This document shows, one piece after another, positions 31,148-39,613 of a DNA stretch of 64,000 bases. The notes beneath the pieces are model-generated. The model was given only the letters and a program-made list of their open reading frames with translations, was not told the origin of the DNA and ran no database searches. How positions within the stretch are numbered: position 1 is the first letter of the stretch; each line of letters starts with the position of its first letter. Source of the DNA: Paracoccaceae bacterium (GTDB lineage Bacteria; Pseudomonadota; Alphaproteobacteria; Rhodobacterales; Rhodobacteraceae); contig CACOXV010000008.1 in NCBI GenBank assembly GCA_902631295.1, positions 9,189 through 73,188 of the forward strand, read 5' to 3'. The translations under genes and the position numbers were made by a program.

Positions 31148-32389
31148 ATGGTAAAGCCAGTTATTGTTATCGGAGCTGGTATCTGCGGTATTTCTACGGC
31201 GATTTGGTTGCAACGCTCAAATTTTGAAGTTGTGTTATTGGATAAAGCCGAGCCTGGAATGGGGGCATCATACGGTAATGCTGGGCTCTTAGCCCAATGG
31301 GCAATTGTTCCGGTCAATGAACCATCGCTTTGGAAACAAATACCACGTTATCTAATTGATCCAATGAGCCCACTATTTCTAAAGTGGAGTTACTTACCTA
31401 AGCTAACTCCATGGTTGATAAAGTTTTTACAAAACGCAAACCGTTCAGATTCAAACAGAACCATTGAAGCTTTAATTCCACTTCTGACGGACTCCGTTGA
31501 ACAGCATAAAAGTCTTACTGAAGGCACGGCTGCAGCTAATTGGATAGCGGACAGTAAGTTTAGCTATGCTTATAGATCTTTAGAAGACTTTCACAAAGAC
31601 TCTTTTGGTTGGGAATGTAAGAAAAAAGTTGGAATGGTTCCTGAGATATTTACAGGAAATTTGGTCCAAGATGTTGAGCCAATATGTGGTTCATTTATTG
31701 ATTGCTTAGCAGTAATTAGTGGGCAGGGGCACATTGTTAACCCGCAGGGTTATATTCGCGAACTCATGAAAGTATTTTCTCAAAATGGAGGAAAATTTAT
31801 TAATGCCAAGGTAGAAGATTTTGGGTTTCAGAATAAAAAAATTTCTAGTGTGCACACTGACAATGGTAACTTTGAATGTGATAAAGCGATTATAACAGCC
31901 GGTATTTGGTCAAAGGAGCTAATGCTAAAGCTAGGCCTTAATATTCCGCTAGAGGCTGAAAGAGGATATCACGTAGTATATAAAAACGCGTCGATATTGC
32001 CTCGAAACCCGATGATGATGACAATAGGTAAATTTGGAGTGACGCCTATGGGAAGCGACCTTAGATGTGCCGGTACAGTTGAACTAGGTGGCATAAAACT
32101 TGGTCCAAGTAAGGCTCCAATTAAGTTACTTAGGCGACGAGTGGCTGAAGCTTTTCCAAAAATGTGTTATGATAAGACTGAGGAATGGTTTGGATTTAGA
32201 CCAACTGCCCCGGATAGCCTTCCACTAATTGGGCAGCTCAAGGAGAGTGGTGTTTATGCAGCATTTGGACACCAACACATTGGAATGACATCTGGACCAA
32301 AAACTGGAAGGTTAATAGCAGATATAATTAACCAAAGATCTCCAAACATTGACATCTCAGTTTATGATCCAAATCGATATAATTTATAG
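31148..32389 (+). CDS. DadA/DAO-family FAD-dependent D-amino/imino acid dehydrogenase
   Basis: IGAGICG, ASYGNAG, AERGYH, GFRP..PDSLPLIG, FGHQHIG. Confidence 0.9.
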   Translation: MVKPVIVIGAGICGISTAIWLQRSNFEVVLLDKAEPGMGASYGNAGLLAQWAIVPVNEPSLWKQIPRYLIDPMSPLFLKWSYLPKLTPWLIKFLQNANRSDSNRTIEALIPLLTDSVEQHKSLTEGTAAANWIADSKFSYAYRSLEDFHKDSFGWECKKKVGMVPEIFTGNLVQDVEPICGSFIDCLAVISGQGHIVNPQGYIRELMKVFSQNGGKFINAKVEDFGFQNKKISSVHTDNGNFECDKAIITAGIWSKELMLKLGLNIPLEAERGYHVVYKNASILPRNPMMMTIGKFGVTPMGSDLRCAGTVELGGIKLGPSKAPIKLLRRRVAEAFPKMCYDKTEEWFGFRPTAPDSLPLIGQLKESGVYAAFGHQHIGMTSGPKTGRLIADIINQRSPNIDISVYDPNRYNL

Positions 32390-32532
32390 GAGTATAGTAA
32401 GGGCGGCATGTCGCTGCATAGCTCAGATCAGTCCCATGCCATGCAAACGAATGGATAACCCTTACTGGCGTATGTACTTGGACAAATGAATTTGATGTTT
32501 TGCCTAAGTTATCCCATTATGACGCCAAGTGA
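32390..32532 (+). pseudogene. Eroded 3' remnant of a DddQ-like (DMSP lyase family) cupin
   Basis: SLHSSDQSHAMQTNG*PLLAYV then, after a 1-nt shift, WTNEFDVLPKL; resembles cupin motif 2 and the C-terminus of DddQ-type proteins as recalled. Confidence 0.45.
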
Positions 32533-32558
32533 CCCTTGATGTAGAAAGTAAAATTTTT

Positions 32559-33392
32559 ATGAAAAAACCTTGCATTTTATGTGTTGCAATCACTGGGTCA
32601 CTCCCAACAAAGGCTGATAATCCTGCAGTACCAATTAGTTTGCAAGAGCAAATAGAAAGTACGCAAAGTGCATTTGAGGCGGGTGCAACAATCGCGCATT
32701 GTCATGTTCGCAATCAGGATCAGACGCCATCATCTGACCCCGAAAAATTTTCTGCATTGTTGGAGGGCTTAAAAGAACACTGTCCTGGTATGGTGATTCA
32801 ATTTTCTACCGGCGGCCGCTCGGGCGCTGGAACTGAGAGGGGTCGAATGCTTCCTCTGGCTCCTGATATGGCGTCATTATCTGTTGGATCCAATAATTTC
32901 CCCACACGTGTTTACGAAAACCCACCTGACTTGGTAAAATGGTTAGCATCAGAAATGAAGAGATACAGGGTTACTCCAGAAGTAGAGGCGTTTGATTTAA
33001 GCCATATTTTGACCGCTATCAGAATGCATGGTCGAAATGAATTATACGGAAAGTTGTATGTTCAGTTTGTTATGGGAGTTAAAAATGCTATGCCTGCTGA
33101 TAAAGAAGTTTTCGATCTATATGTAAAAATTATGAACGAAAGAGCACCCAAAGCGGAGTGGTGTGCAGCAGGGATCGGTGCTAATCAAATTATCGTAAAT
33201 GAATGGGCAATTGCGGCTGGAGGCCATACAAGGTCGGGACTTGAGGATAATGTTAGACTTGATAAAAACACACTAGCACCTTCTAATGCGGCATTAATCC
33301 AAAGAGCATCAGAAATATGTGAAAAATATGAGCGCCCTGTTGCGACATGGCGTCAGACGCGCGAAATGCTAAATCTCCAAATAGAAATTTAG
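32559..33392 (+). CDS. Beta-keto acid cleavage enzyme (BKACE/DUF849, Kce family)
   Basis: AITGS, HCHVR Zn ligands, STGG, GGHTRSGLED. Confidence 0.92.
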   Translation: MKKPCILCVAITGSLPTKADNPAVPISLQEQIESTQSAFEAGATIAHCHVRNQDQTPSSDPEKFSALLEGLKEHCPGMVIQFSTGGRSGAGTERGRMLPLAPDMASLSVGSNNFPTRVYENPPDLVKWLASEMKRYRVTPEVEAFDLSHILTAIRMHGRNELYGKLYVQFVMGVKNAMPADKEVFDLYVKIMNERAPKAEWCAAGIGANQIIVNEWAIAAGGHTRSGLEDNVRLDKNTLAPSNAALIQRASEICEKYERPVATWRQTREMLNLQIEI

Positions 33393-33400
33393 GTTTTCAG

Positions 33401-34333
33401 TTGAAGCCACCTATCACAAAACTTCTTACGTCAAAAAGTTTTCTCAATTTACCTGTCCTTTTAGATTGGTCAAATCTGAAGCACCAAGCCGTAGTTTTTG
33501 GGGCACCCTTCGGTAAACCTTACAGTACTGGTGAGTTTCCAAATAATCAGTCAACCGCTCCGGATAGACTTCGTGACGCATCATCACGAATTCTTGTTGA
33601 TCCACATTCTGTAGATCTTGACCTTTCATCAGGCAGTACTCTTGCATCAATATCAGTTGCTGATGGAGGAAATATTCCCCTTAGAGATAACGATATTGAT
33701 CGGCATTACTCTGACATAGAAGGTGCAGTGCGCTACTTAGTAGGCAGAGGCGTTTTGCCTGTTTCAATAGGAGGCGACGATGGAATAACTAATCCGGTAT
33801 TACGAGGCTTGGACCCACTAAATGACGTAACGGTCATTCAAATTGATGCACATATGGATTGGAAAACTGAGCGATTTGGTGAAAGAGACGGATACTCGAG
33901 CCCCATGCGAAGAGCTTCAGAAATGGCTCATATTTCTGGAATACATCAAGTTGGTATACGTTCTTATGGAAGTGCTACAGCGCAGGATTTTAAAGATGCA
34001 AAAGATTGGGGAGCACAGATTTATCTTGCTAAGGATATCCATGAAAAAGGAATAGAATTTTTTTTGAATAAGTTACCTGAGGTAGGCAAGTTCTTTATAA
34101 CTCTTGATGTGGATGGGTTAGATCCATCAATAGTGCCTGGAACCATAGCACTATCGCCTGGTGGCCTTAATTGGATGCAAATTTCTGCATGTTTTGATGG
34201 AATATCAAAAAAAGGACAGATTATTGGTCTGAACGTTGTAGAGTTAGCGCCCAAGAACGATATTAATCAAATTTCGATGATTGTGGTCGGTAGGTTGATT
34301 CTAAAATGTCTCATGCTCGAACTAAATAAATAG
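33401..34333 (+). CDS. Ureohydrolase (agmatinase/guanidinobutyrase family), variant metal site
   Basis: GGDDG, DAHMD, TLDVDGLDP, VELAP; start uncertain (TTG 33401 or ATG 33347). Confidence 0.85.
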   Translation: MKPPITKLLTSKSFLNLPVLLDWSNLKHQAVVFGAPFGKPYSTGEFPNNQSTAPDRLRDASSRILVDPHSVDLDLSSGSTLASISVADGGNIPLRDNDIDRHYSDIEGAVRYLVGRGVLPVSIGGDDGITNPVLRGLDPLNDVTVIQIDAHMDWKTERFGERDGYSSPMRRASEMAHISGIHQVGIRSYGSATAQDFKDAKDWGAQIYLAKDIHEKGIEFFLNKLPEVGKFFITLDVDGLDPSIVPGTIALSPGGLNWMQISACFDGISKKGQIIGLNVVELAPKNDINQISMIVVGRLILKCLMLELNK

Positions 34334-34340
34334 CTATATA

Positions 34341-35216
34341 ATGACGGAAGTTTCAGTAATAATCCCAACATATAATAGAGCAGATTTTATCTCAGACTGT
34401 GTTCAATCAGTTTTGGCTCAAACGTTACCTGCGCGTGAGTTAATTATAGTCGATGATGGGTCCACAGATACAACTTATAAAATTTTAAGTGATTTAGGAT
34501 TTAATTCTATAAGTACGCCTAAGACTGTTTTACGATATGTTTTTCAAGAAAACCGAGGGGTCAGCTCTGCAAGAAATTTAGGGATTAAGGAGGCAAGAAG
34601 TGAGTATATTGCTCTGTTAGATTCTGATGATCTTTGGTTAAAAGGAAAGCTAGATCGGCAGGCAATTGCGTTTAAAGATGATATACGAAACAGTCGGCTG
34701 TGTCACACTGACGAAATATGGATACGCAATGGGGTTCGTGTAAACCAACACAAAAAACATAAGAAACATGGAGGCAATGTTTTCCAAAGCTGTCTCAAAT
34801 TATGTTGTATATCTCCAAGTTCATCAATGATGCATAGATCAGTTTTCGAGGACTTTGGTTTTTTTGATGAGGAACTACCAGCATGTGAGGATTATGACTT
34901 CTGGTTGCGGTATAGTTCAAAAGAGGAAGTAATTTTTATTGATGAGCCATTAATCATCAAAAAGGGAGGTCACAGTGATCAACTTTCAGGTGTGCATTGG
35001 GGAATGGACAGATTTCGCATATATGCTCTTGAAAAGATGTTAAATAAGCCTGATCTCAAATTGGATTACAGAATTGCGGCGATACGTGAAGTTATAATAA
35101 AAATGGATATTTTAATAAATGGATCTCAAAAGCGTAAAAAAATGGCTTACGCAAAGACTTTGCTTCAAAGGAAGCAATATTGGGAAGATTCATTAAGGCG
35201 CTGTTTTAATGATTGA
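34341..35216 (+). CDS. GT2 family glycosyltransferase
   Basis: VIIPTYNR, VDDGSTD, GVSSARNLG, LDSDD (DxD), EDYDFWLR; no TM segment. Confidence 0.92.
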   Translation: MTEVSVIIPTYNRADFISDCVQSVLAQTLPARELIIVDDGSTDTTYKILSDLGFNSISTPKTVLRYVFQENRGVSSARNLGIKEARSEYIALLDSDDLWLKGKLDRQAIAFKDDIRNSRLCHTDEIWIRNGVRVNQHKKHKKHGGNVFQSCLKLCCISPSSSMMHRSVFEDFGFFDEELPACEDYDFWLRYSSKEEVIFIDEPLIIKKGGHSDQLSGVHWGMDRFRIYALEKMLNKPDLKLDYRIAAIREVIIKMDILINGSQKRKKMAYAKTLLQRKQYWEDSLRRCFND

Positions 35217-36069
35217 ACTGCCCGATATTCGAGACGTTGATCTAAAAATCTGCTGGGTGATAGCGTTAGAACCTGAAGCAAAACCACTTATTGATTTATT
35301 TGATCTACATCCACTTTCGAATAATTTAAACTTTCCTGTGTACATAAATCCAAAGAGTGGGCATGCTCTTGTGATATCTGGAATTGGGTCAAGTAAAGCC
35401 GCCGCGGCCGCTACCTATTTAAAAATGTTGTTTAATGTTCAGAGGTATGTTGCGTGGATCAACATCGGAATTGCTGGGTTTTGTGAAGAACCAATTGGGC
35501 AATTATTTCAAGCGATAAAGGTTCATGATACAGCAAGAAAAACGTCATATTTTCCAGGTTTTCGATTATCAAAAATAGTCAAATGCCAAACACTGCATAC
35601 TGTTGCCCAGCCAGAAACAAAATATTCAGAAGCTGTACTTTTTGATATGGAAGCATCAGGTTTTTGTGAGATCGCCTCTATGTTTTCCTGTAATGAATTG
35701 GTATTCGTTTTAAAGATCGTATCTGATACACCAAAAAGTCCTGTGAGTTTGGTTTCAAGAGAAGCAATTACTCAATTGATATATCAAAATAAAAATAAAC
35801 TTCGTGGAATAATTAGTCGCATAGAAAAATTAGTGAATGATGAGAAAAAAAGACTGCACGTACCAGAGGAGGTTTATCAATATTTTGAAAGGTATCATTT
35901 TACTCAGAGTAATAGATATAGATTTTTGCAAGCATATAAAAAATGGAAGTCTGCATTTCCCGATGGAAAATTAGCACGTACTCTAGCCGCGGGAAACTCC
36001 GCTTCAGAATTAATCTCTAATCTCGAGAGTGAGCTTTTCTTAGCAGTAAAAGACTGGAAGCTAAAATGA
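35209..36069 (+). CDS. Nucleoside phosphorylase/nucleosidase-fold protein (MTAN/MqnB/HpnG-like)
   Basis: ALEPEA, SGIG..KAAAA, NIGIAG, DMEASG, KIVSD motifs. Confidence 0.78.
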   Translation: MIELPDIRDVDLKICWVIALEPEAKPLIDLFDLHPLSNNLNFPVYINPKSGHALVISGIGSSKAAAAATYLKMLFNVQRYVAWINIGIAGFCEEPIGQLFQAIKVHDTARKTSYFPGFRLSKIVKCQTLHTVAQPETKYSEAVLFDMEASGFCEIASMFSCNELVFVLKIVSDTPKSPVSLVSREAITQLIYQNKNKLRGIISRIEKLVNDEKKRLHVPEEVYQYFERYHFTQSNRYRFLQAYKKWKSAFPDGKLARTLAAGNSASELISNLESELFLAVKDWKLK

Positions 36070-37058
36070 TCGACAGTATTTTTGTGGAGCGTGAAGTCCT
36101 AGATCATCCAGTGGCACAAGAAATTTGTAAACGCCTGAAGCACGCCGATATTTTTGAGATTGAACGATATCAAGAAATGTTTAATCGGAGAAAACAGAAC
36201 TTCCGTATTCAAAAACAAAACCCTGCTTTAATTTTAGCAAAAAAACACGATAATTTTGTTTTACCGGCACCATCAGGTTTTGGTATTGATGCACAAAAAA
36301 ATTATTATTTTTCTCATATGTATAACTGTATCTATGATTGCCGATACTGTTTTCTACAAGGTATGTACTCTTCTGCAAACTACGTTTTATTTGTAAATTA
36401 CGAGGATTTTTTTAAAGCAATTTCGGATACAATTTTTGAAAATAATAATAAAAGTATGACTTTTTTTTCCGGTTATGATTGTGACTCCTTAGCATTTGAA
36501 AAAATAACAGGCTTTGCAGAAAAAGCGTTAGAATTTTTTACTAATTTCAGTTCGGTTGAACTTGAACTTAGAACTAAGAGTATAGTTTCTGACACTCTTT
36601 TAAACAGAAGTCCTATTTCTAATTGTGTCGTAGCTTATAGTTTGGCTCCCAGTAATGTCGCAGCCATTTTGGATAATAAGGCCCCCAGTATAGATAGACG
36701 AATTAATGTTTTGCAAAAACTAGCCAAAAATGGTTGGTCCGTTGGTCTCAGGTTTGACCCTCTGATTTACTGCTCTGGCTGGGAAAAACTTTATTCAGAA
36801 CTGATTCACAAAATATTCAATGATATAAACATTGAGCAAGTTCACTCTGTAAGTCACGGTCCCCTCAGATATCCTAAAGAAATGTATAAAAAAATTACAT
36901 CTCTATATCCAGATGATAAACTTTTTTCATTTCCAATGGAGGCTAAGGATGGAATTGTATCATATGGCAAAGAAATAGAGGAAGAAATGTCTTCATTTCT
37001 GCAATTTGAATTAGAAAAGTATACAACAAGAAATAAAATTTTTCGTTGTTTGGTTTGA
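36066..37058 (+). CDS. Spore-photoproduct-lyase-like radical SAM protein
   Basis: C88-x3-C92-x2-C95 (NCIYDCRYCFLQ), ELRTKS, GLRFDP; SPL-like length and layout. Confidence 0.88.
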   Translation: MIDSIFVEREVLDHPVAQEICKRLKHADIFEIERYQEMFNRRKQNFRIQKQNPALILAKKHDNFVLPAPSGFGIDAQKNYYFSHMYNCIYDCRYCFLQGMYSSANYVLFVNYEDFFKAISDTIFENNNKSMTFFSGYDCDSLAFEKITGFAEKALEFFTNFSSVELELRTKSIVSDTLLNRSPISNCVVAYSLAPSNVAAILDNKAPSIDRRINVLQKLAKNGWSVGLRFDPLIYCSGWEKLYSELIHKIFNDINIEQVHSVSHGPLRYPKEMYKKITSLYPDDKLFSFPMEAKDGIVSYGKEIEEEMSSFLQFELEKYTTRNKIFRCLV

Positions 37059-37076
37059 GGCTGGAGCTTGTAAAAT

Positions 37077-37781
37077 TTGGAAAAAAGAAAAGCGATCGTT
37101 ACCGGTAGTTCGAGCGGTATTGGAAAAGAAATTACTTCACTACTATTAAAAAGTGGGACTGATGTAATAGGTCTTGCACGCGATCACAAAAAATTTAAGC
37201 CAGATTTTGATGGTTATTTTCCTATTTCAGTTGATTTGTCGGATTTTGAAAAAACTGAGCGCATTATTCCGCAGGTTTTGCATCAACACTCTGAAGTTGA
37301 CGTGTTAATTTGTAATGCTGGTTGTGGTGATTTTCGAACCTTGGAGAATTTTTCTGCTAAGCAAATATCTGATTTTTTAAATTTAAATTTAATATCACAT
37401 ATAATGCTTTGCAGACACTTAGTGAGTTTTATGAAGGCTAAGGGTAGTGGTGACATTATTATCATGGGTTCAGAGGCTTCTATAGTTGGAAAGAAAAAGG
37501 CATCACTTTATTCAGCCGCAAAGTTTGGTTTGAGAGGTTTTGCTCAATCAATTCGTGATGAATGCGGCAACTCTGGCGTGAGGGTTTGTTTAATAAATCC
37601 GGGTTTTGTAAGAACCCCATTTTTTGACAGCTTGAATTTTGAGCCCGGCAAGGATGAAAATAATGCAATTGAACCAGGTGATATTGCTAAAATAGTATGT
37701 GATATTATCGAAACTAGAAAGGGTACACTCATTGATGAAATCAATGTATCACCAGCATCTAAGACGATAATATTCAAATAA
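37077..37781 (+). CDS. Classical SDR oxidoreductase (probably NADP-dependent)
   Basis: TGSSSGIG, LARD, CNAG, YSAAK, NPGFVRT; GGAG RBS, TTG start. Confidence 0.92.
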   Translation: MEKRKAIVTGSSSGIGKEITSLLLKSGTDVIGLARDHKKFKPDFDGYFPISVDLSDFEKTERIIPQVLHQHSEVDVLICNAGCGDFRTLENFSAKQISDFLNLNLISHIMLCRHLVSFMKAKGSGDIIIMGSEASIVGKKKASLYSAAKFGLRGFAQSIRDECGNSGVRVCLINPGFVRTPFFDSLNFEPGKDENNAIEPGDIAKIVCDIIETRKGTLIDEINVSPASKTIIFK

Positions 37782-37909
37782 AGTATCTTAAGAGTTATAA
37801 ATATATGCCAGCTATAAAATAATGCAAAACGGGTATGCAAAAATAGCATTGGTAAAACTTGCCGCAACGCAGCATATTATATTACAGAAAAACGTGATGC
37901 GTTTTTTAA

Positions 37910-38023
37910 AGTTTTTCACACGTTCCTCCCAATTTCGTTTGAAAGACTAAAGGATAGTGACCTACCTCCTCCCTAGGTCAATCTTTTCGATAAAGGCCCT
38001 TTTAAGAGGGCCTTTATCATTTT
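37910..38023 (+). ncRNA. Candidate anti-Shine-Dalgarno small RNA (AbcR/MmgR-SuhB/cuckoo-like): two CU-rich loop hairpins plus terminator
   Basis: Hairpin 1 AGTTTTTCA..TGAAAGACT with loop TTCCTCCCAATTT; hairpin 2 TGACCTA-CCTCCTCCC-TAGGTCA extended by AAAGGAT/ATCTTTT; terminator follows; 5' end approximate. Confidence 0.7.
37989..38023. terminator. Intrinsic terminator shared by the sRNA (+) and the aruI-like gene (-)
   Basis: GATAAAGGCCCT-TTTAAG-AGGGCCTTTATC perfect 12-bp stem, followed by ATTTT. Confidence 0.8.
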
Positions 38024-38038
38024 GGAGGCGTCGTTAGT

Positions 38039-39613
38039 CTATTGGATTTCTCCAGAGATATGGATAACAGTCGGAACTTTTGCGCTGAAAGCTGCAATTA
38101 TATTTTTTTGTAGTTCTTTTTGGTTAGCTGGCTTTCTAGATAGCGCCCCATAGGATTCAGCTAATTTGCAGAAATTAGGGTTTAAAGCTTGAACGGAATT
38201 TGGAGCAATTTGCGCAGCCACCATGCTGTCCTCGATTGCTTTAAGTTTTTGGTTGTCCCAAATGAGAATTGGTAAATTAAGTTGCAATTCAACAGCGGTA
38301 CCTAACTCCTGTATTGTGTACTGAAATCCATAGTCACCAGCTATAGCTATCGTGGGCATATTGGGTCTGGCAATACAACCGCCTATCGCAGCTGGCAATG
38401 CATACCCTAAAGTCCCAAATCCATAAGGATGATGCCAATGATTAGGTTTTTTCATATCCCAAATTTCTTTAGCCAAATATGCAAATTGCGTCATATCAGA
38501 ATATACCATAGTATCTTCTGGTAAGATTTCCTCGACTGCTCTGACCACCTCTGATACCCCAGGAAACTCTCTTATTGCTTGTAAAGTCCATTCTTCACGT
38601 TTTTGCGATATAAGTTTAGGATCCCACTTTTCTGCACTATCTTGTCCATTGAAGTTTTTTAGAGATGCTTTAACAAAGTCTTCCACCTTCATATTTAGCT
38701 TAATATCCGCATTATGATGGTCACTGAGAACTTCAGGATCGGTATCGACACGAACCAGTGTACATTTGTGACCCAGATCGTATCGCCAGATATCAACTTC
38801 CGCTAGTTCTGAGCCCAGAACAACTATTAAATCTGATTTTGATAGCATACTTACAGTGTCTGGCCTAGCCAACGATGAGCCCATAAATAAAGGGTAAGTT
38901 GCTGGTATTAGTCCCCTGCCCGTAAAGCTTGTAAAACTGGCAGCACCAGTCTTTTTTATTAGCTTAAAAACGTCTGCTTTCTTTGCGCCACCACCTACAA
39001 TAAACAGAGGCTTTTCAGAGTTTTTAATTAGCTTCGAAACCTCATTTATCTCGTTTTCGGCATATGAAAAAAAGTTTTTAGCTCTTTCACTGATTTCAAA
39101 ATCAGGTGCGTTTTCTTCAAGTACTTTAATTGGGATTTGTATATGTTTTGGTCTGGGTCTCTTATCATGGAATTCTGTAAATGCCCGTTCCAATAAGCCA
39201 TAAGCAGCCTTGTAATTTTGAGCTGTCTCAGACCAGTCACAAACACTACCGGCTGCACTCTCCTGATCCAGCATTTGGTGTAACTGTCCGCGTCGGTATG
39301 CTGTTTCGTCTAAGCACGAAGAAATAGCTAGGACCGGTATGCTATCGGAGTATGATTGCCCTAGTGCAGTTAAAACATTACAAATACCTGGTCCCGTAAT
39401 AACATAAACAATTCCTGGTTTGCCACTGGCTCTGGCGTAGCCATCTGCCATGAAGCCAGCGCCCTGTTCATGTCTTGCAAGAATATGGATGAGCTCCGCT
39501 TCGTCAATGCCGCGATAAAGCTCTTGGTTGTGAACGCCGGGAATGCCAAATATGTATTGGACACCTTGGTTTTTTAAAAACCTTGATATTTGGACTCCGG
39601 TTGGTCTCTCCAT
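38039..39613 (-). CDS. aruI: ThDP-dependent decarboxylase, 5-guanidino-2-oxopentanoate (2-ketoarginine) decarboxylase-like
   Basis: FGIPGVHN, RHEQGAGFMADGYAR, GQLH, DMTQFAY, GFGTLGYALP, GDYG..N. Confidence 0.75.
   Translation of the reverse strand: MERPTGVQISRFLKNQGVQYIFGIPGVHNQELYRGIDEAELIHILARHEQGAGFMADGYARASGKPGIVYVITGPGICNVLTALGQSYSDSIPVLAISSCLDETAYRRGQLHQMLDQESAAGSVCDWSETAQNYKAAYGLLERAFTEFHDKRPRPKHIQIPIKVLEENAPDFEISERAKNFFSYAENEINEVSKLIKNSEKPLFIVGGGAKKADVFKLIKKTGAASFTSFTGRGLIPATYPLFMGSSLARPDTVSMLSKSDLIVVLGSELAEVDIWRYDLGHKCTLVRVDTDPEVLSDHHNADIKLNMKVEDFVKASLKNFNGQDSAEKWDPKLISQKREEWTLQAIREFPGVSEVVRAVEEILPEDTMVYSDMTQFAYLAKEIWDMKKPNHWHHPYGFGTLGYALPAAIGGCIARPNMPTIAIAGDYGFQYTIQELGTAVELQLNLPILIWDNQKLKAIEDSMVAAQIAPNSVQALNPNFCKLAESYGALSRKPANQKELQKNIIAAFSAKVPTVIHISGEIQ

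What the first reader, a model, noticed from the sequence alone, without database searches (positions are those of the whole stretch)
34341..37781. Coupled GT2 / nucleosidase-fold / SPL-like radical SAM / SDR operon: candidate undescribed nucleoside- or sugar-tailoring system
Seen: four co-oriented genes, coupled by an 8-nt overlap (35209-35216), a 4-nt ATGA overlap (36066-36069) and an 18-nt gap. They are unrelated to the surrounding amine catabolism and look more AT-rich by eye. The radical SAM protein has C88-x3-C92-x2-C95, with Phe96 where B. subtilis SplB has the redox-active Tyr99, and Cys139 near the SplB Cys141 position. Known: SPL repairs spore photoproduct in endospores, which this organism should not make. 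A radical SAM + phosphorylase + GT2 trio also builds the hopanoid side chain (HpnH/HpnG/HpnI), and MTAN-type enzymes clear 5'-deoxyadenosine. Inference: a four-step pathway (radical C-H activation or adenosylation, base removal, glycosylation, keto reduction) making a modified nucleoside, osmolyte or lipid head group. A light-independent DNA repair or base-modification module is the alternative.
Basis: partly seen in the sequence, partly recalled or inferred. Interest (0 to 1): 0.8.

Follow-up and report, generated by a model that had tools for sequence, protein, structure and literature searches.

The report
Radical-SAM, nucleosidase, reductase, glycosyltransferase operon
Four tightly packed genes in a marine roseobacter are one copy of a widespread, unstudied enzyme set; it probably moves the ribose of S-adenosylmethionine onto an unknown molecule, strips off the adenine, reduces the product and adds a sugar, and it is not a DNA-repair system.

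Summary
Four co-oriented genes (GT2, MTAN-type nucleosidase with a private C-terminal domain, SPL-fold radical SAM, NADP-type SDR) are joined by 8-nt and 4-nt overlaps and an 18-nt gap. They occupy the most AT-rich 3.4 kb of the window.

The set is conserved. Full synteny occurs in Rhodobacteraceae, SAR116, Rhodospirillaceae and gammaproteobacteria. Sub-sets occur in Chlamydiota, Myxococcota, Omnitrophota, Acidobacteriota and a family of metagenomic contigs of unidentified taxon.

The radical SAM enzyme and the nucleosidase hit exactly the same 4 of 401 alphaproteobacterial genomes and the same 29 of 61 Methylococcales genomes, even where they lie hundreds of kb apart. Natural fusions link nucleosidase-rSAM, GT2-nucleosidase and GT2-rSAM.

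The radical SAM enzyme has the whole SPL fold (Z 33) and SPL's SAM-binding residues. It lacks SPL's photoproduct-binding and radical-relay residues. The nucleosidase keeps the MTAN catalytic residues.

Best reading (about 0.45): 5'-deoxyadenosyl addition to an unknown acceptor, then adenine removal, reduction and glycosylation, the logic of HpnH/HpnG/HpnI and MqnE/MqnB. The substrate is unknown, and I found no paper on the module.

This scan has flagged the same module at least ten times on other DNA, always as uncharacterised.

The parts
34341..35216 (+). Soluble family-2 glycosyltransferase (291 aa), probably the step that glycosylates the pathway product
   Evidence: - Family: PF00535 at 110 bits. 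No NCBIfam equivalog reaches its cut-off.
- Conservation: orthologues at 45-58% identity lie in the same position in 38 of 80 loci.
- Fusions: orthologues are fused in other lineages to the nucleosidase, to the SPL-fold rSAM, to a sugar-1-P nucleotidyltransferase, to PPK2 or to a HAD domain.
35209..36069 (+). MTAN-type adenine nucleosidase (residues ~11-212) with a family-private helical C-terminal domain (~184-286)
   Evidence: - Model: AF2 pLDDT 92.
- Fold: the best matches are MTANs and futalosine hydrolase (Foldseek E 1e-12; VIA Z 22.1, rmsd 2.7 over 197 residues).
- Catalytic residues: E23, M147-E148 and S172-D173 are invariant. They align with the MTAN AMxxE, ME and SD motifs.
- C-domain: its profile finds 1004 cluster representatives. 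Among the best 150 listed, it sits at the end of ~270-290 aa proteins or in short proteins, probably fragments.
36066..37058 (+). SPL-fold radical SAM enzyme (330 aa) with CxxxCxxC at C88/C92/C95; candidate catalytic residue Tyr137
   Evidence: - Family: PF20903 at 85 bits. TIGR04070 scores 101 bits against a cut-off of 400.
- Model: AF2 pLDDT 89.
- Fold: VIA Z 33.0, rmsd 2.5 over 320 residues to SPL 4fhf; the next match is PFL-AE at Z 15.9.
- SAM residues kept: D140, K171, S192, R268.
- SP-binding and relay residues replaced: A190, G265, Y137, F96.
37077..37781 (+). Classical SDR (234 aa, TTG start), probably an NADPH-dependent reductase
   Evidence: - Family: PF00106 at 141 bits.
- Conservation: an SDR directly follows the rSAM gene in 76 of 78 loci. 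It also follows the distant fused form.
- Residues: TGxxxGIG, Arg35 after strand 2, NAG and Ser132-Tyr145-Lys149 are invariant.

Best explanation
Proposal: the four genes encode one pathway that uses S-adenosylmethionine as a donor of its ribose.

- Step 1 (inferred): the SPL-fold radical SAM enzyme cleaves SAM. The 5'-deoxyadenosyl radical adds to an unidentified acceptor instead of only abstracting a hydrogen. The adduct radical is quenched by an active-site donor, and the invariant Tyr137 at the SPL Cys140 position is the candidate.
- Step 2 (enzyme class shown, substrate inferred): the dedicated MTAN-type nucleosidase hydrolyses adenine off the adduct. It probably docks on the radical SAM enzyme through its private C-terminal domain.
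- Step 3 (inferred): the NADP-type SDR reduces the freed ribose aldehyde or a keto group formed in step 1.
- Step 4 (inferred): the GT2 adds a sugar from an NDP-sugar.

The product would be a glycosylated, ribose-derived polyol side chain on an acceptor that is common to many phyla. The module was acquired horizontally by this roseobacter genus.
For: - Conserved order: GT2-nucleosidase-rSAM-SDR is syntenic across Rhodobacteraceae, SAR116, Rhodospirillaceae, Thalassobaculaceae, Magnetovibrio and Chromatiaceae. No fifth gene is conserved.
- Co-occurrence in Alphaproteobacteria: rSAM and nucleosidase hit the same 4 of 401 evenly sampled genomes.
- Co-occurrence in Methylococcales: they hit the same 29 of 61 genomes, although they are unlinked in several (for example 430 kb apart in G459).
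- Fusions: nucleosidase-rSAM (P0121, P0122, the P0125 family), GT2-nucleosidase and GT2-rSAM.
- Nucleosidase: it keeps the MTAN catalytic residues. Its fold is closest to MTAN and futalosine hydrolase.
- Redundancy: M. tundripaludum and an acidobacterium keep this nucleosidase although they have bona fide MTAP genes.
- rSAM: SAM and cluster residues are kept, while the SPL radical relay (Cys140, Tyr98) that regenerates SAM is gone. SAM is therefore likely consumed.
- SDR: Arg35 is invariant, which is typical of NADP(H) users.
- GT2 partners: fusions to nucleotidyltransferase, HAD and PPK2 fit an NDP-sugar-dependent final step.
- Precedent: rSAM adenosylation followed by adenine removal is established for HpnH/HpnG and MqnE (PMC13459092).
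- Expression: metatranscriptome contigs from three studies touch all four genes and bridge two junctions.
Against: - No acceptor is identified, and no substrate-forming gene travels with the module.
- Nothing in the sequence distinguishes radical addition from ordinary hydrogen abstraction.
- One Methylococcales genome (G062) has rSAM-SDR but neither nucleosidase nor GT2 was found with my queries.
- Near-complete genomes of the window's own genus show no MTAN or MTAP above cut-off. Here the nucleosidase could simply dispose of 5'-deoxyadenosine.
- The direction of the SDR reaction rests on one motif.
- The order of the GT2 step is unknown.
Confidence: 0.45

Rival explanations
1. The radical SAM enzyme does ordinary hydrogen-abstraction chemistry on a small molecule such as a sugar or nucleotide (rearrangement, dehydration or C-C bond chemistry). 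The SDR and GT2 process that molecule. The nucleosidase only removes the inhibitory by-product 5'-deoxyadenosine.
For: - MTAN-type enzymes do clear 5'-deoxyadenosine (established knowledge).
- No MTAN or MTAP above cut-off was found in two 94-98% complete genomes of this genus. Only DeoD and PNP-I were found in the window's own assembly.
- G062 carries rSAM-SDR without the nucleosidase.
- rSAM-SDR is the tightest pair (76 of 78 loci). It separates from GT2-nucleosidase in many Methylococcales.
Against: - rSAM and nucleosidase co-occur perfectly in 462 genomes, even when unlinked.
- The nucleosidase carries a domain that, among the best 150 of 1004 profile hits, was seen only at the end of nucleosidase-sized proteins or in short proteins.
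- The nucleosidase is fused to this rSAM in three lineages.
- Genomes with MTAP still keep it.
- A general scavenger would not need to be private to one radical SAM family (inference).
Confidence: 0.27
2. The module acts on DNA or RNA. The SPL-fold enzyme repairs or modifies a pyrimidine in a nucleic acid, and the other three enzymes elaborate or remove the adduct.
For: - The whole SPL fold is kept, including the N-terminal domain and a beta-hairpin at 292-299.
- An SRAP gene lies 2 kb away in one Parachlamydiaceae locus.
Against: - The SP-base contacts Arg193 and Glu268 are invariant Ala190 and Gly265.
- The hairpin tip is variable and carries no aromatic or Arg-Tyr pair.
- The window protein is slightly acidic (pI 6.4), and the family pI ranges from 6.1 to 9.5.
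- No repair, restriction or phage genes recur beside the module.
- An SDR and an NDP-sugar GT2 with nucleotidyltransferase or HAD partners point to small-molecule metabolism.
Confidence: 0.1
3. The module is a non-orthologous arsenosugar-type route. The 5'-deoxyadenosyl radical is captured by a heteroatom (As, Se, S or P species) and the resulting riboside is re-glycosylated.
For: - The logic matches ArsS plus the TIGR04283 glycosyltransferase (established knowledge).
- The GT2 hits TIGR04283 at 62 bits.
- Many carriers are surface-ocean bacteria.
Against: - 62 bits is far below the cut-off of 182, and many GT2 models score alike.
- No arsM or ars genes are in the conserved neighbourhood.
- The module also occurs in freshwater methanotrophs, chlamydiae and a family of metagenomic contigs of unidentified taxon.
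Confidence: 0.05

Closest known systems
Spore photoproduct lyase SplB (EC 4.1.99.14; TIGR04070; PDB 4FHC/4FHF, G. thermodenitrificans)
   Same: - Full-length fold: VIA Z 33.0, rmsd 2.5 A over 320 residues.
- CxxxCxxC followed by LQ.
- SAM-binding Asp143, Lys174, Ser195 and Arg273 are conserved as D140, K171, S192 and R268.
   Different: - About 19% identity, and 101 bits against a cut-off of 400.
- Cys140 becomes Tyr137 and Tyr98 becomes Phe96.
- Arg193 becomes Ala190 and Glu268 becomes Gly265.
- The hairpin tip lacks Arg304-Tyr305.
- It is found in non-sporulating bacteria and is bound genetically to a nucleosidase, an SDR and a GT2.
HpnH / HpnG / HpnI of bacteriohopanepolyol side-chain synthesis
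   Same: - The same proposed logic and the same enzyme classes: radical SAM adenosylation, PNP-superfamily adenine removal and GT2 glycosylation (PMC13459092).
- The module adds a reductase for the step that has no assigned enzyme in the hopanoid route.
   Different: - The radical SAM enzyme belongs to another family (the SPL fold; no HpnH model was hit).
- No squalene-hopene cyclase was found in this genus or in the Parachlamydiaceae carrier.
- Methylobacter has its own HpnG-like gene next to its cyclase.
MqnE (aminofutalosine synthase) with MqnB or MTAN (futalosine pathway)
   Same: - Radical addition of the 5'-deoxyadenosyl radical to a C=C bond, followed by hydrolysis of the base by an MTAN-fold enzyme.
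- The module's nucleosidase model matches H. pylori futalosine hydrolase and C. trachomatis CT263.
   Different: - MqnE resembles the rSAM only at the generic radical SAM level (Z 13.4).
- TIGR03664 scores 16.6 bits against a cut-off of 124.7.
- No other mqn genes are in the neighbourhood.
5'-methylthioadenosine/S-adenosylhomocysteine nucleosidase (MTAN, EC 3.2.2.9)
   Same: - The fold, and the catalytic Glu, Met-Glu and Ser-Asp motifs.
   Different: - 15-21% identity, and 16.5 bits against a cut-off of 169.
- An extra ~100-residue helical domain, seen among the best 150 profile hits only at the end of nucleosidase-sized proteins or in short proteins.
- Fused or coupled to one radical SAM family.

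Membership tests
Spore photoproduct lyase (TIGR04070, EC 4.1.99.14) | Radical SAM CxxxCxxC cluster motif and SPL SAM-binding residues (Asp143, Lys174, Ser195, Arg273) | tested here: met
   C88/C92/C95, D140, K171, S192 and R268 are all invariant in 32 sequences.
Spore photoproduct lyase (TIGR04070, EC 4.1.99.14) | Full-length SPL fold | tested here: met
   VIA Z 33.0, rmsd 2.5 A, 320 aligned residues, model 1-329 to chain 5-341. The next family scores Z 15.9. Foldseek TM is 0.85.
Spore photoproduct lyase (TIGR04070, EC 4.1.99.14) | Score above the curated equivalog cut-off | tested here: not met
   101.2 bits against 400. TIGR03886 scores 60.3 against 437.6.
Spore photoproduct lyase (TIGR04070, EC 4.1.99.14) | Hydrogen-donor Cys140 (B. 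subtilis Cys141) and relay Tyr98 (Tyr99) | tested here: not met
   The aligned positions hold the invariant Tyr137 and Phe96. Cys139 pairs with Ser142 and is Thr in distant fused members.
Spore photoproduct lyase (TIGR04070, EC 4.1.99.14) | Photoproduct base contacts Arg193 and Glu268; hairpin tip Arg304-Tyr305 | tested here: not met
   Ala190 and Gly265 are invariant. The hairpin at 292-299 is present, but its tip is variable, acidic or neutral, and has no aromatic residue.
MTAN-type nucleosidase (EC 3.2.2.9; NF004079) | PNP/UDP-1 fold closest to MTAN | tested here: met
   VIA Z 22.1-19.6 for MTANs against 18.3 or less for uridine and purine phosphorylases. Foldseek E is 1e-12.
MTAN-type nucleosidase (EC 3.2.2.9; NF004079) | Catalytic Glu12, Met173-Glu174 and Ser196-Asp197 (E. 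coli numbering, from my own knowledge; the mutant structures 1z5n and 1z5o are listed) | tested here: met
   E23, M147-E148 and S172-D173 are invariant in 27 sequences. They align with AMPEE, EME and SD of S. pneumoniae MTAN.
MTAN-type nucleosidase (EC 3.2.2.9; NF004079) | Score above the curated cut-off; substrate MTA/SAH | tested here: not met
   16.5 bits against 169. The substrate cannot be tested with these tools.
HpnH/HpnG/HpnI hopanoid side-chain system | HpnH-family radical SAM and co-occurrence with squalene-hopene cyclase | tested here: not met
   Only the SPL models hit the rSAM. TIGR01507 was not found in G000, G004 (94% complete), G006 (98% complete) or G065. It is present in G061 with its own MTAN-like neighbour.
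Futalosine pathway (MqnE/MqnB) | MqnE-family rSAM; futalosine hydrolase above cut-off | tested here: not met
   MqnE scores Z 13.4, the generic radical SAM level. TIGR03664 scores 16.6 bits against 124.7.
Radical SAM C-adenosylation plus deadenylation (functional class) | 5'-deoxyadenosyl adduct formed and then hydrolysed | not testable with these tools
   This rests on inference from fusions, co-occurrence and loss of the SAM-regenerating relay.
Glycosyltransferase family 2 (PF00535) | GT-A domain above the gathering score | tested here: met
   110.5 bits against 23.3.
Classical short-chain dehydrogenase/reductase (PF00106) | TGxxxGIG, NAG and the Ser-Tyr-Lys triad | tested here: met
   G10/G14/I15/G16, A81-G82, S132, Y145 and K149 are invariant. 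Arg35 is also invariant.
Arsenosugar system (ArsS, TIGR04283 GT) | Models above cut-off | tested here: not met
   TIGR04283 scores 62 bits against 182. No ArsS model was hit by the rSAM.

The most novel reading that the evidence does not exclude
- The SPL fold, known only as a DNA-repair enzyme, is used here for a new reaction: an independent (third or fourth) invention of radical C-adenosylation.
- With its private nucleosidase, a reductase and a glycosyltransferase, it would make an undescribed glycosylated, SAM-ribose-derived metabolite, lipid side chain or cofactor.
- That product would occur in abundant ocean bacteria (SAR116, pelagic roseobacters), about half of the sampled type I methanotrophs, environmental chlamydiae and other, still unidentified bacteria.
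Probability: 0.4. Interest if true: 0.85.

Novelty: new variant of a known kind. Interest (0 to 1): 0.7.

Why it matters
- Annotation: thousands of proteins in public databases are labelled "spore photoproduct lyase" or "DNA photolyase" in bacteria that make no spores. The evidence here says the label is wrong for this family.
- Enzymology: if the mechanism holds, it gives the SPL fold its first non-repair function. It adds a new radical SAM lineage to the few that donate the ribose of SAM.
- Hopanoid parallel: it supplies a candidate enzyme type for the reductive step that is still unassigned in the analogous hopanoid pathway.
- Ecology: it points to an unknown product made by ecologically dominant marine bacteria and by methane oxidisers.
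- Testability: the perfect co-occurrence and the fusions make the pathway directly testable in tractable methanotrophs.

Tried and rejected
- The protein-atlas search could not read the sequences.
- Literature: six full-text searches found no paper on this module. The SplB-like enzymes discussed in PMC3765255 belong to a different system linked to SRAP, ImuB-C or DUF4130.
- Riboswitches: no Rfam family lies at the module in 8 loci; the only hit is an unrelated TPP riboswitch in L016.
- Promoter and terminator scans of 32300-38100 were at shuffle level.
- Defence and phage: there were no PADLOC hits. PHROGs gave only generic GT2 and FabG-like hits and one weak family of unknown function for the rSAM.
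- Extra conserved genes: clustering of all flank ORFs of 80 loci gave only lineage-specific neighbours, such as a GFA-like gene in SAR116 and proC/YGGT in Methylobacter.
- An FNR-like [2Fe-2S] reductase overlaps the nucleosidase gene in M. tundripaludum. It looked like an electron donor, but it is absent from 28 other Methylococcales loci.
- P0311 looked like a GT2-SDR fusion, but its SDR is only 20% identical to the module SDR, so I did not count it.
- The fused nucleosidase-rSAM family sits with its SDR among ppk1, cstA and proS, which gave no pathway clue.
- pI gave no consistent sign of nucleic-acid binding.
The whole-model search was filled by the MTAN domain.


Full report
**Observation**

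They are joined by an 8-nt overlap, an ATGA overlap and an 18-nt gap.

Pfam and NCBIfam identify the following:
- a family-2 glycosyltransferase (110 bits);
- a very divergent PNP/UDP-1 protein (E 3e-3, with weak hits to MTAN and futalosine hydrolase);
- a PF20903 spore-photoproduct-lyase (SPL) family radical SAM protein (85 bits; TIGR04070 at 101 bits against a cut-off of 400);
- a classical SDR (141 bits).

C88-x3-C92-x2-C95, Phe96 and Cys139 are present as stated. Module GC is 0.354 against 0.400 for the rest of the window, which makes it the lowest 3.4-kb stretch in the window. The flanking genes are amine and amino-acid catabolism.

Metatranscriptome contigs from three studies, at 93-99% identity, touch all four genes. 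They bridge the GT2/nucleosidase overlap (35055-35227) and the rSAM/SDR gap (36719-37180). This is weak evidence of expression, because RNA libraries can contain DNA.

**Conservation**

A scan of one genome per species found at least 573 species that encode a relative of the radical SAM protein. In the 80 best loci:
- the order GT2-nucleosidase-rSAM-SDR is kept in Rhodobacteraceae, SAR116, Rhodospirillaceae, Thalassobaculaceae, Magnetovibrio and Chromatiaceae;
- nucleosidase-rSAM-SDR occurs in Parachlamydiaceae, Myxococcales and Chromatiales;
- rSAM-SDR alone occurs in Methylobacter.

Clustering every flank ORF found no fifth conserved gene.

Where the set is split, the missing genes are elsewhere in the genome.
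- In M. tundripaludum, the GT2 (46% identity) and the nucleosidase lie 230 kb from rSAM-SDR.
- In an acidobacterium, GT2 and nucleosidase lie 4 kb apart on another contig.
- In an Omnitrophota genome, the GT2 orthologue lies 12 kb downstream and is fused to a HAD domain.

**Co-occurrence**

In an even sample of 401 alphaproteobacterial genomes, the rSAM profile and the nucleosidase profile hit exactly the same four genomes. In 61 Methylococcales genomes they hit exactly the same 29, although the two genes are far apart in several of them. Examples are 430 kb in G459 and more than 1 Mb in G486 and G498. One of the 29, G484, is an unpublished genome; without it the count is 28 of 60. Related genomes are not independent, but I saw no discordant genome in these two samples.

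Within Rhodobacteraceae, the gene is found in 17 of 21 other genomes of the window's genus. The four without it are 58-67% complete. It is found in none of 15 other genera. Together with the low GC, this indicates horizontal acquisition.

**Fusions**

- Nucleosidase-rSAM fusions exist in a gammaproteobacterial MAG (P0121, 50% identity), in P0122, and in a family of ~706-aa proteins at 32% identity. In that family the fusion is again followed by an SDR and otherwise surrounded by unrelated housekeeping genes.
- GT2 orthologues (45-52% identity) are fused to the nucleosidase (P0306-P0308 and others) or to the SPL-fold rSAM (P0312, P0314, P0317 and others).
- GT2 orthologues are also fused to a sugar-1-phosphate nucleotidyltransferase, to PPK2 or to HAD, which fit supply of an NDP-sugar donor.

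**The radical SAM enzyme**

The AF2 model (pLDDT 89) superposes on G. thermodenitrificans SPL over its whole length: VIA Z 33.0, rmsd 2.5 A, 320 residues. The next family, PFL-AE, scores Z 15.9 (Foldseek TM 0.85).

I combined the profile alignment to the SPL chain with the residue roles given in the structure paper PMC3467042.
- SAM-binding residues are conserved: Asp143, Lys174, Ser195 and Arg273 correspond to D140, K171, S192 and R268.
- The photoproduct contacts Arg193 and Glu268 are invariant Ala190 and Gly265.
- The hydrogen donor Cys140 is the invariant Tyr137.
- The relay Tyr98 is Phe96.

Both Cys139 and the invariant C-terminal Cys328 are replaced (by Thr and Trp) in the distant fused forms, whereas Tyr137 is invariant throughout.

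A hairpin is kept at 292-299, but its tip is variable and lacks the Arg-Tyr wedge. The window protein has pI 6.4.

It is therefore an SPL-fold enzyme but not an SP lyase. With the relay that regenerates SAM gone, SAM is probably consumed.

**The nucleosidase**

The model (pLDDT 92) is closest to MTANs and futalosine hydrolases: Z 22.1-19.6, against 18.3 or less for uridine and purine phosphorylases. E23, M147-E148 and S172-D173 are invariant and align with the MTAN catalytic motifs.

A profile of its ~100-residue helical C-domain finds 1004 cluster representatives among 1.84 billion. Among the best 150 listed, it lies at the C-terminal end of ~270-290 aa proteins or in short proteins that are probably fragments. 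In the fusions this domain sits between the two catalytic domains, so a docking role is likely (inference).

M. tundripaludum and the acidobacterium keep this nucleosidase although they also have MTAP above cut-off. In two 94-98% complete genomes of the window's genus, no MTAN or MTAP above cut-off was found; only DeoD and PNP-I were found in the window's own 70% complete assembly.

**SDR and GT2**

The GT2 has no close characterised relative.

**Interpretation**

The best-supported mechanism is a pathway that donates the ribose of SAM:
1. radical addition of the 5'-deoxyadenosyl group to an acceptor;
2. adenine removal;
3. reduction;
4. glycosylation.

This is the logic of HpnH/HpnG/HpnI and MqnE/MqnB (PMC13459092), but it is built on a different radical SAM fold. 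It is not tied to hopanoids: squalene-hopene cyclase was not found in this genus or in the chlamydial carrier, and Methylobacter has a separate HpnG-like gene beside its cyclase.

The enzyme classes, their coupling and the loss of SP-lyase residues are shown. The addition chemistry, the order of steps and the acceptor are inferred.

The main rival is ordinary hydrogen-abstraction chemistry with a dedicated 5'-deoxyadenosine scavenger. It is kept alive by the lack of MTAN and MTAP in this genus, and by one Methylococcales genome (G062) with rSAM-SDR in which no nucleosidase was found. A nucleic-acid target is unlikely but not excluded.

**Novelty**

I found no publication on the module. This scan has flagged it at least ten times in other genomes, and each follow-up called it uncharacterised. 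I tested several of their claims independently: the fusions, the loss of repair residues, the presence in methanotrophs, and the distant fused nucleosidase-rSAM family that is again followed by an SDR.

Noticed in passing
window 37939-38100: The spacer after the SDR gene has by far the highest metatranscriptome contig depth of the stretch I laid (43 in X16, 13 in X18). This fits the small RNA that another finding of this scan places at 37910-38023.
   Followed up: partly
genomes G004 and G006 (same genus, 94% and 98% complete): No MTA/SAH nucleosidase and no MTA phosphorylase above cut-off was found; only weak sub-cut-off hits were seen. DeoD-type and PNP-I phosphorylases were identified in G000. 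The module's nucleosidase may be the only MTAN-type enzyme of this streamlined genus, which raises the question of how it disposes of 5'-deoxyadenosine.
   Followed up: partly
L103:15762-17399 (Omnitrophota G064): The GT2 orthologue (48% identity) carries a C-terminal HAD_2 domain. Other lineages fuse the GT2 to a PF00483 nucleotidyltransferase (P0319, P0327) or to PPK2 (P0346).
   Followed up: partly
L086:6619-7605 (M. tundripaludum): A [2Fe-2S]-FAD-NAD(P) reductase gene overlaps the start of the nucleosidase ORF, with a MarR/V4R-type regulator gene next to it. It is not conserved in 28 other Methylococcales loci.
   Followed up: yes
rSAM residues 139 and 328 (window 36480-36482 and 37047-37049): Two cysteines are invariant in all members at 50% identity or more. 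They are replaced together (by Thr and Trp) in the distant fused family, which could mean a functional pair. Cys328 lies within a residue or two of the SPL Tyr339 position in the superposition.
   Followed up: partly
genome G062 (Methylococcales MAG, locus L033): It carries rSAM-SDR, but neither the nucleosidase profile nor the GT2 query found a match. It is the only such case I saw.
   Followed up: no
window 33347-33392: The BKACE gene (32529-33392) scores 464 bits on the NCBIfam 3-oxoadipate:acetyl-CoA acetyltransferase model. As called, it overlaps the following arginase-family gene (33347-34333) by 46 nt. That gene ends 7 nt before the GT2 start, so the module may be read through from the catabolic genes.
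   Followed up: no
L046:11240-11950 (Parachlamydiaceae): An SRAP (SOS-response-associated peptidase) gene lies about 2 kb downstream of the three-gene module. It was seen in this locus only.
   Followed up: no
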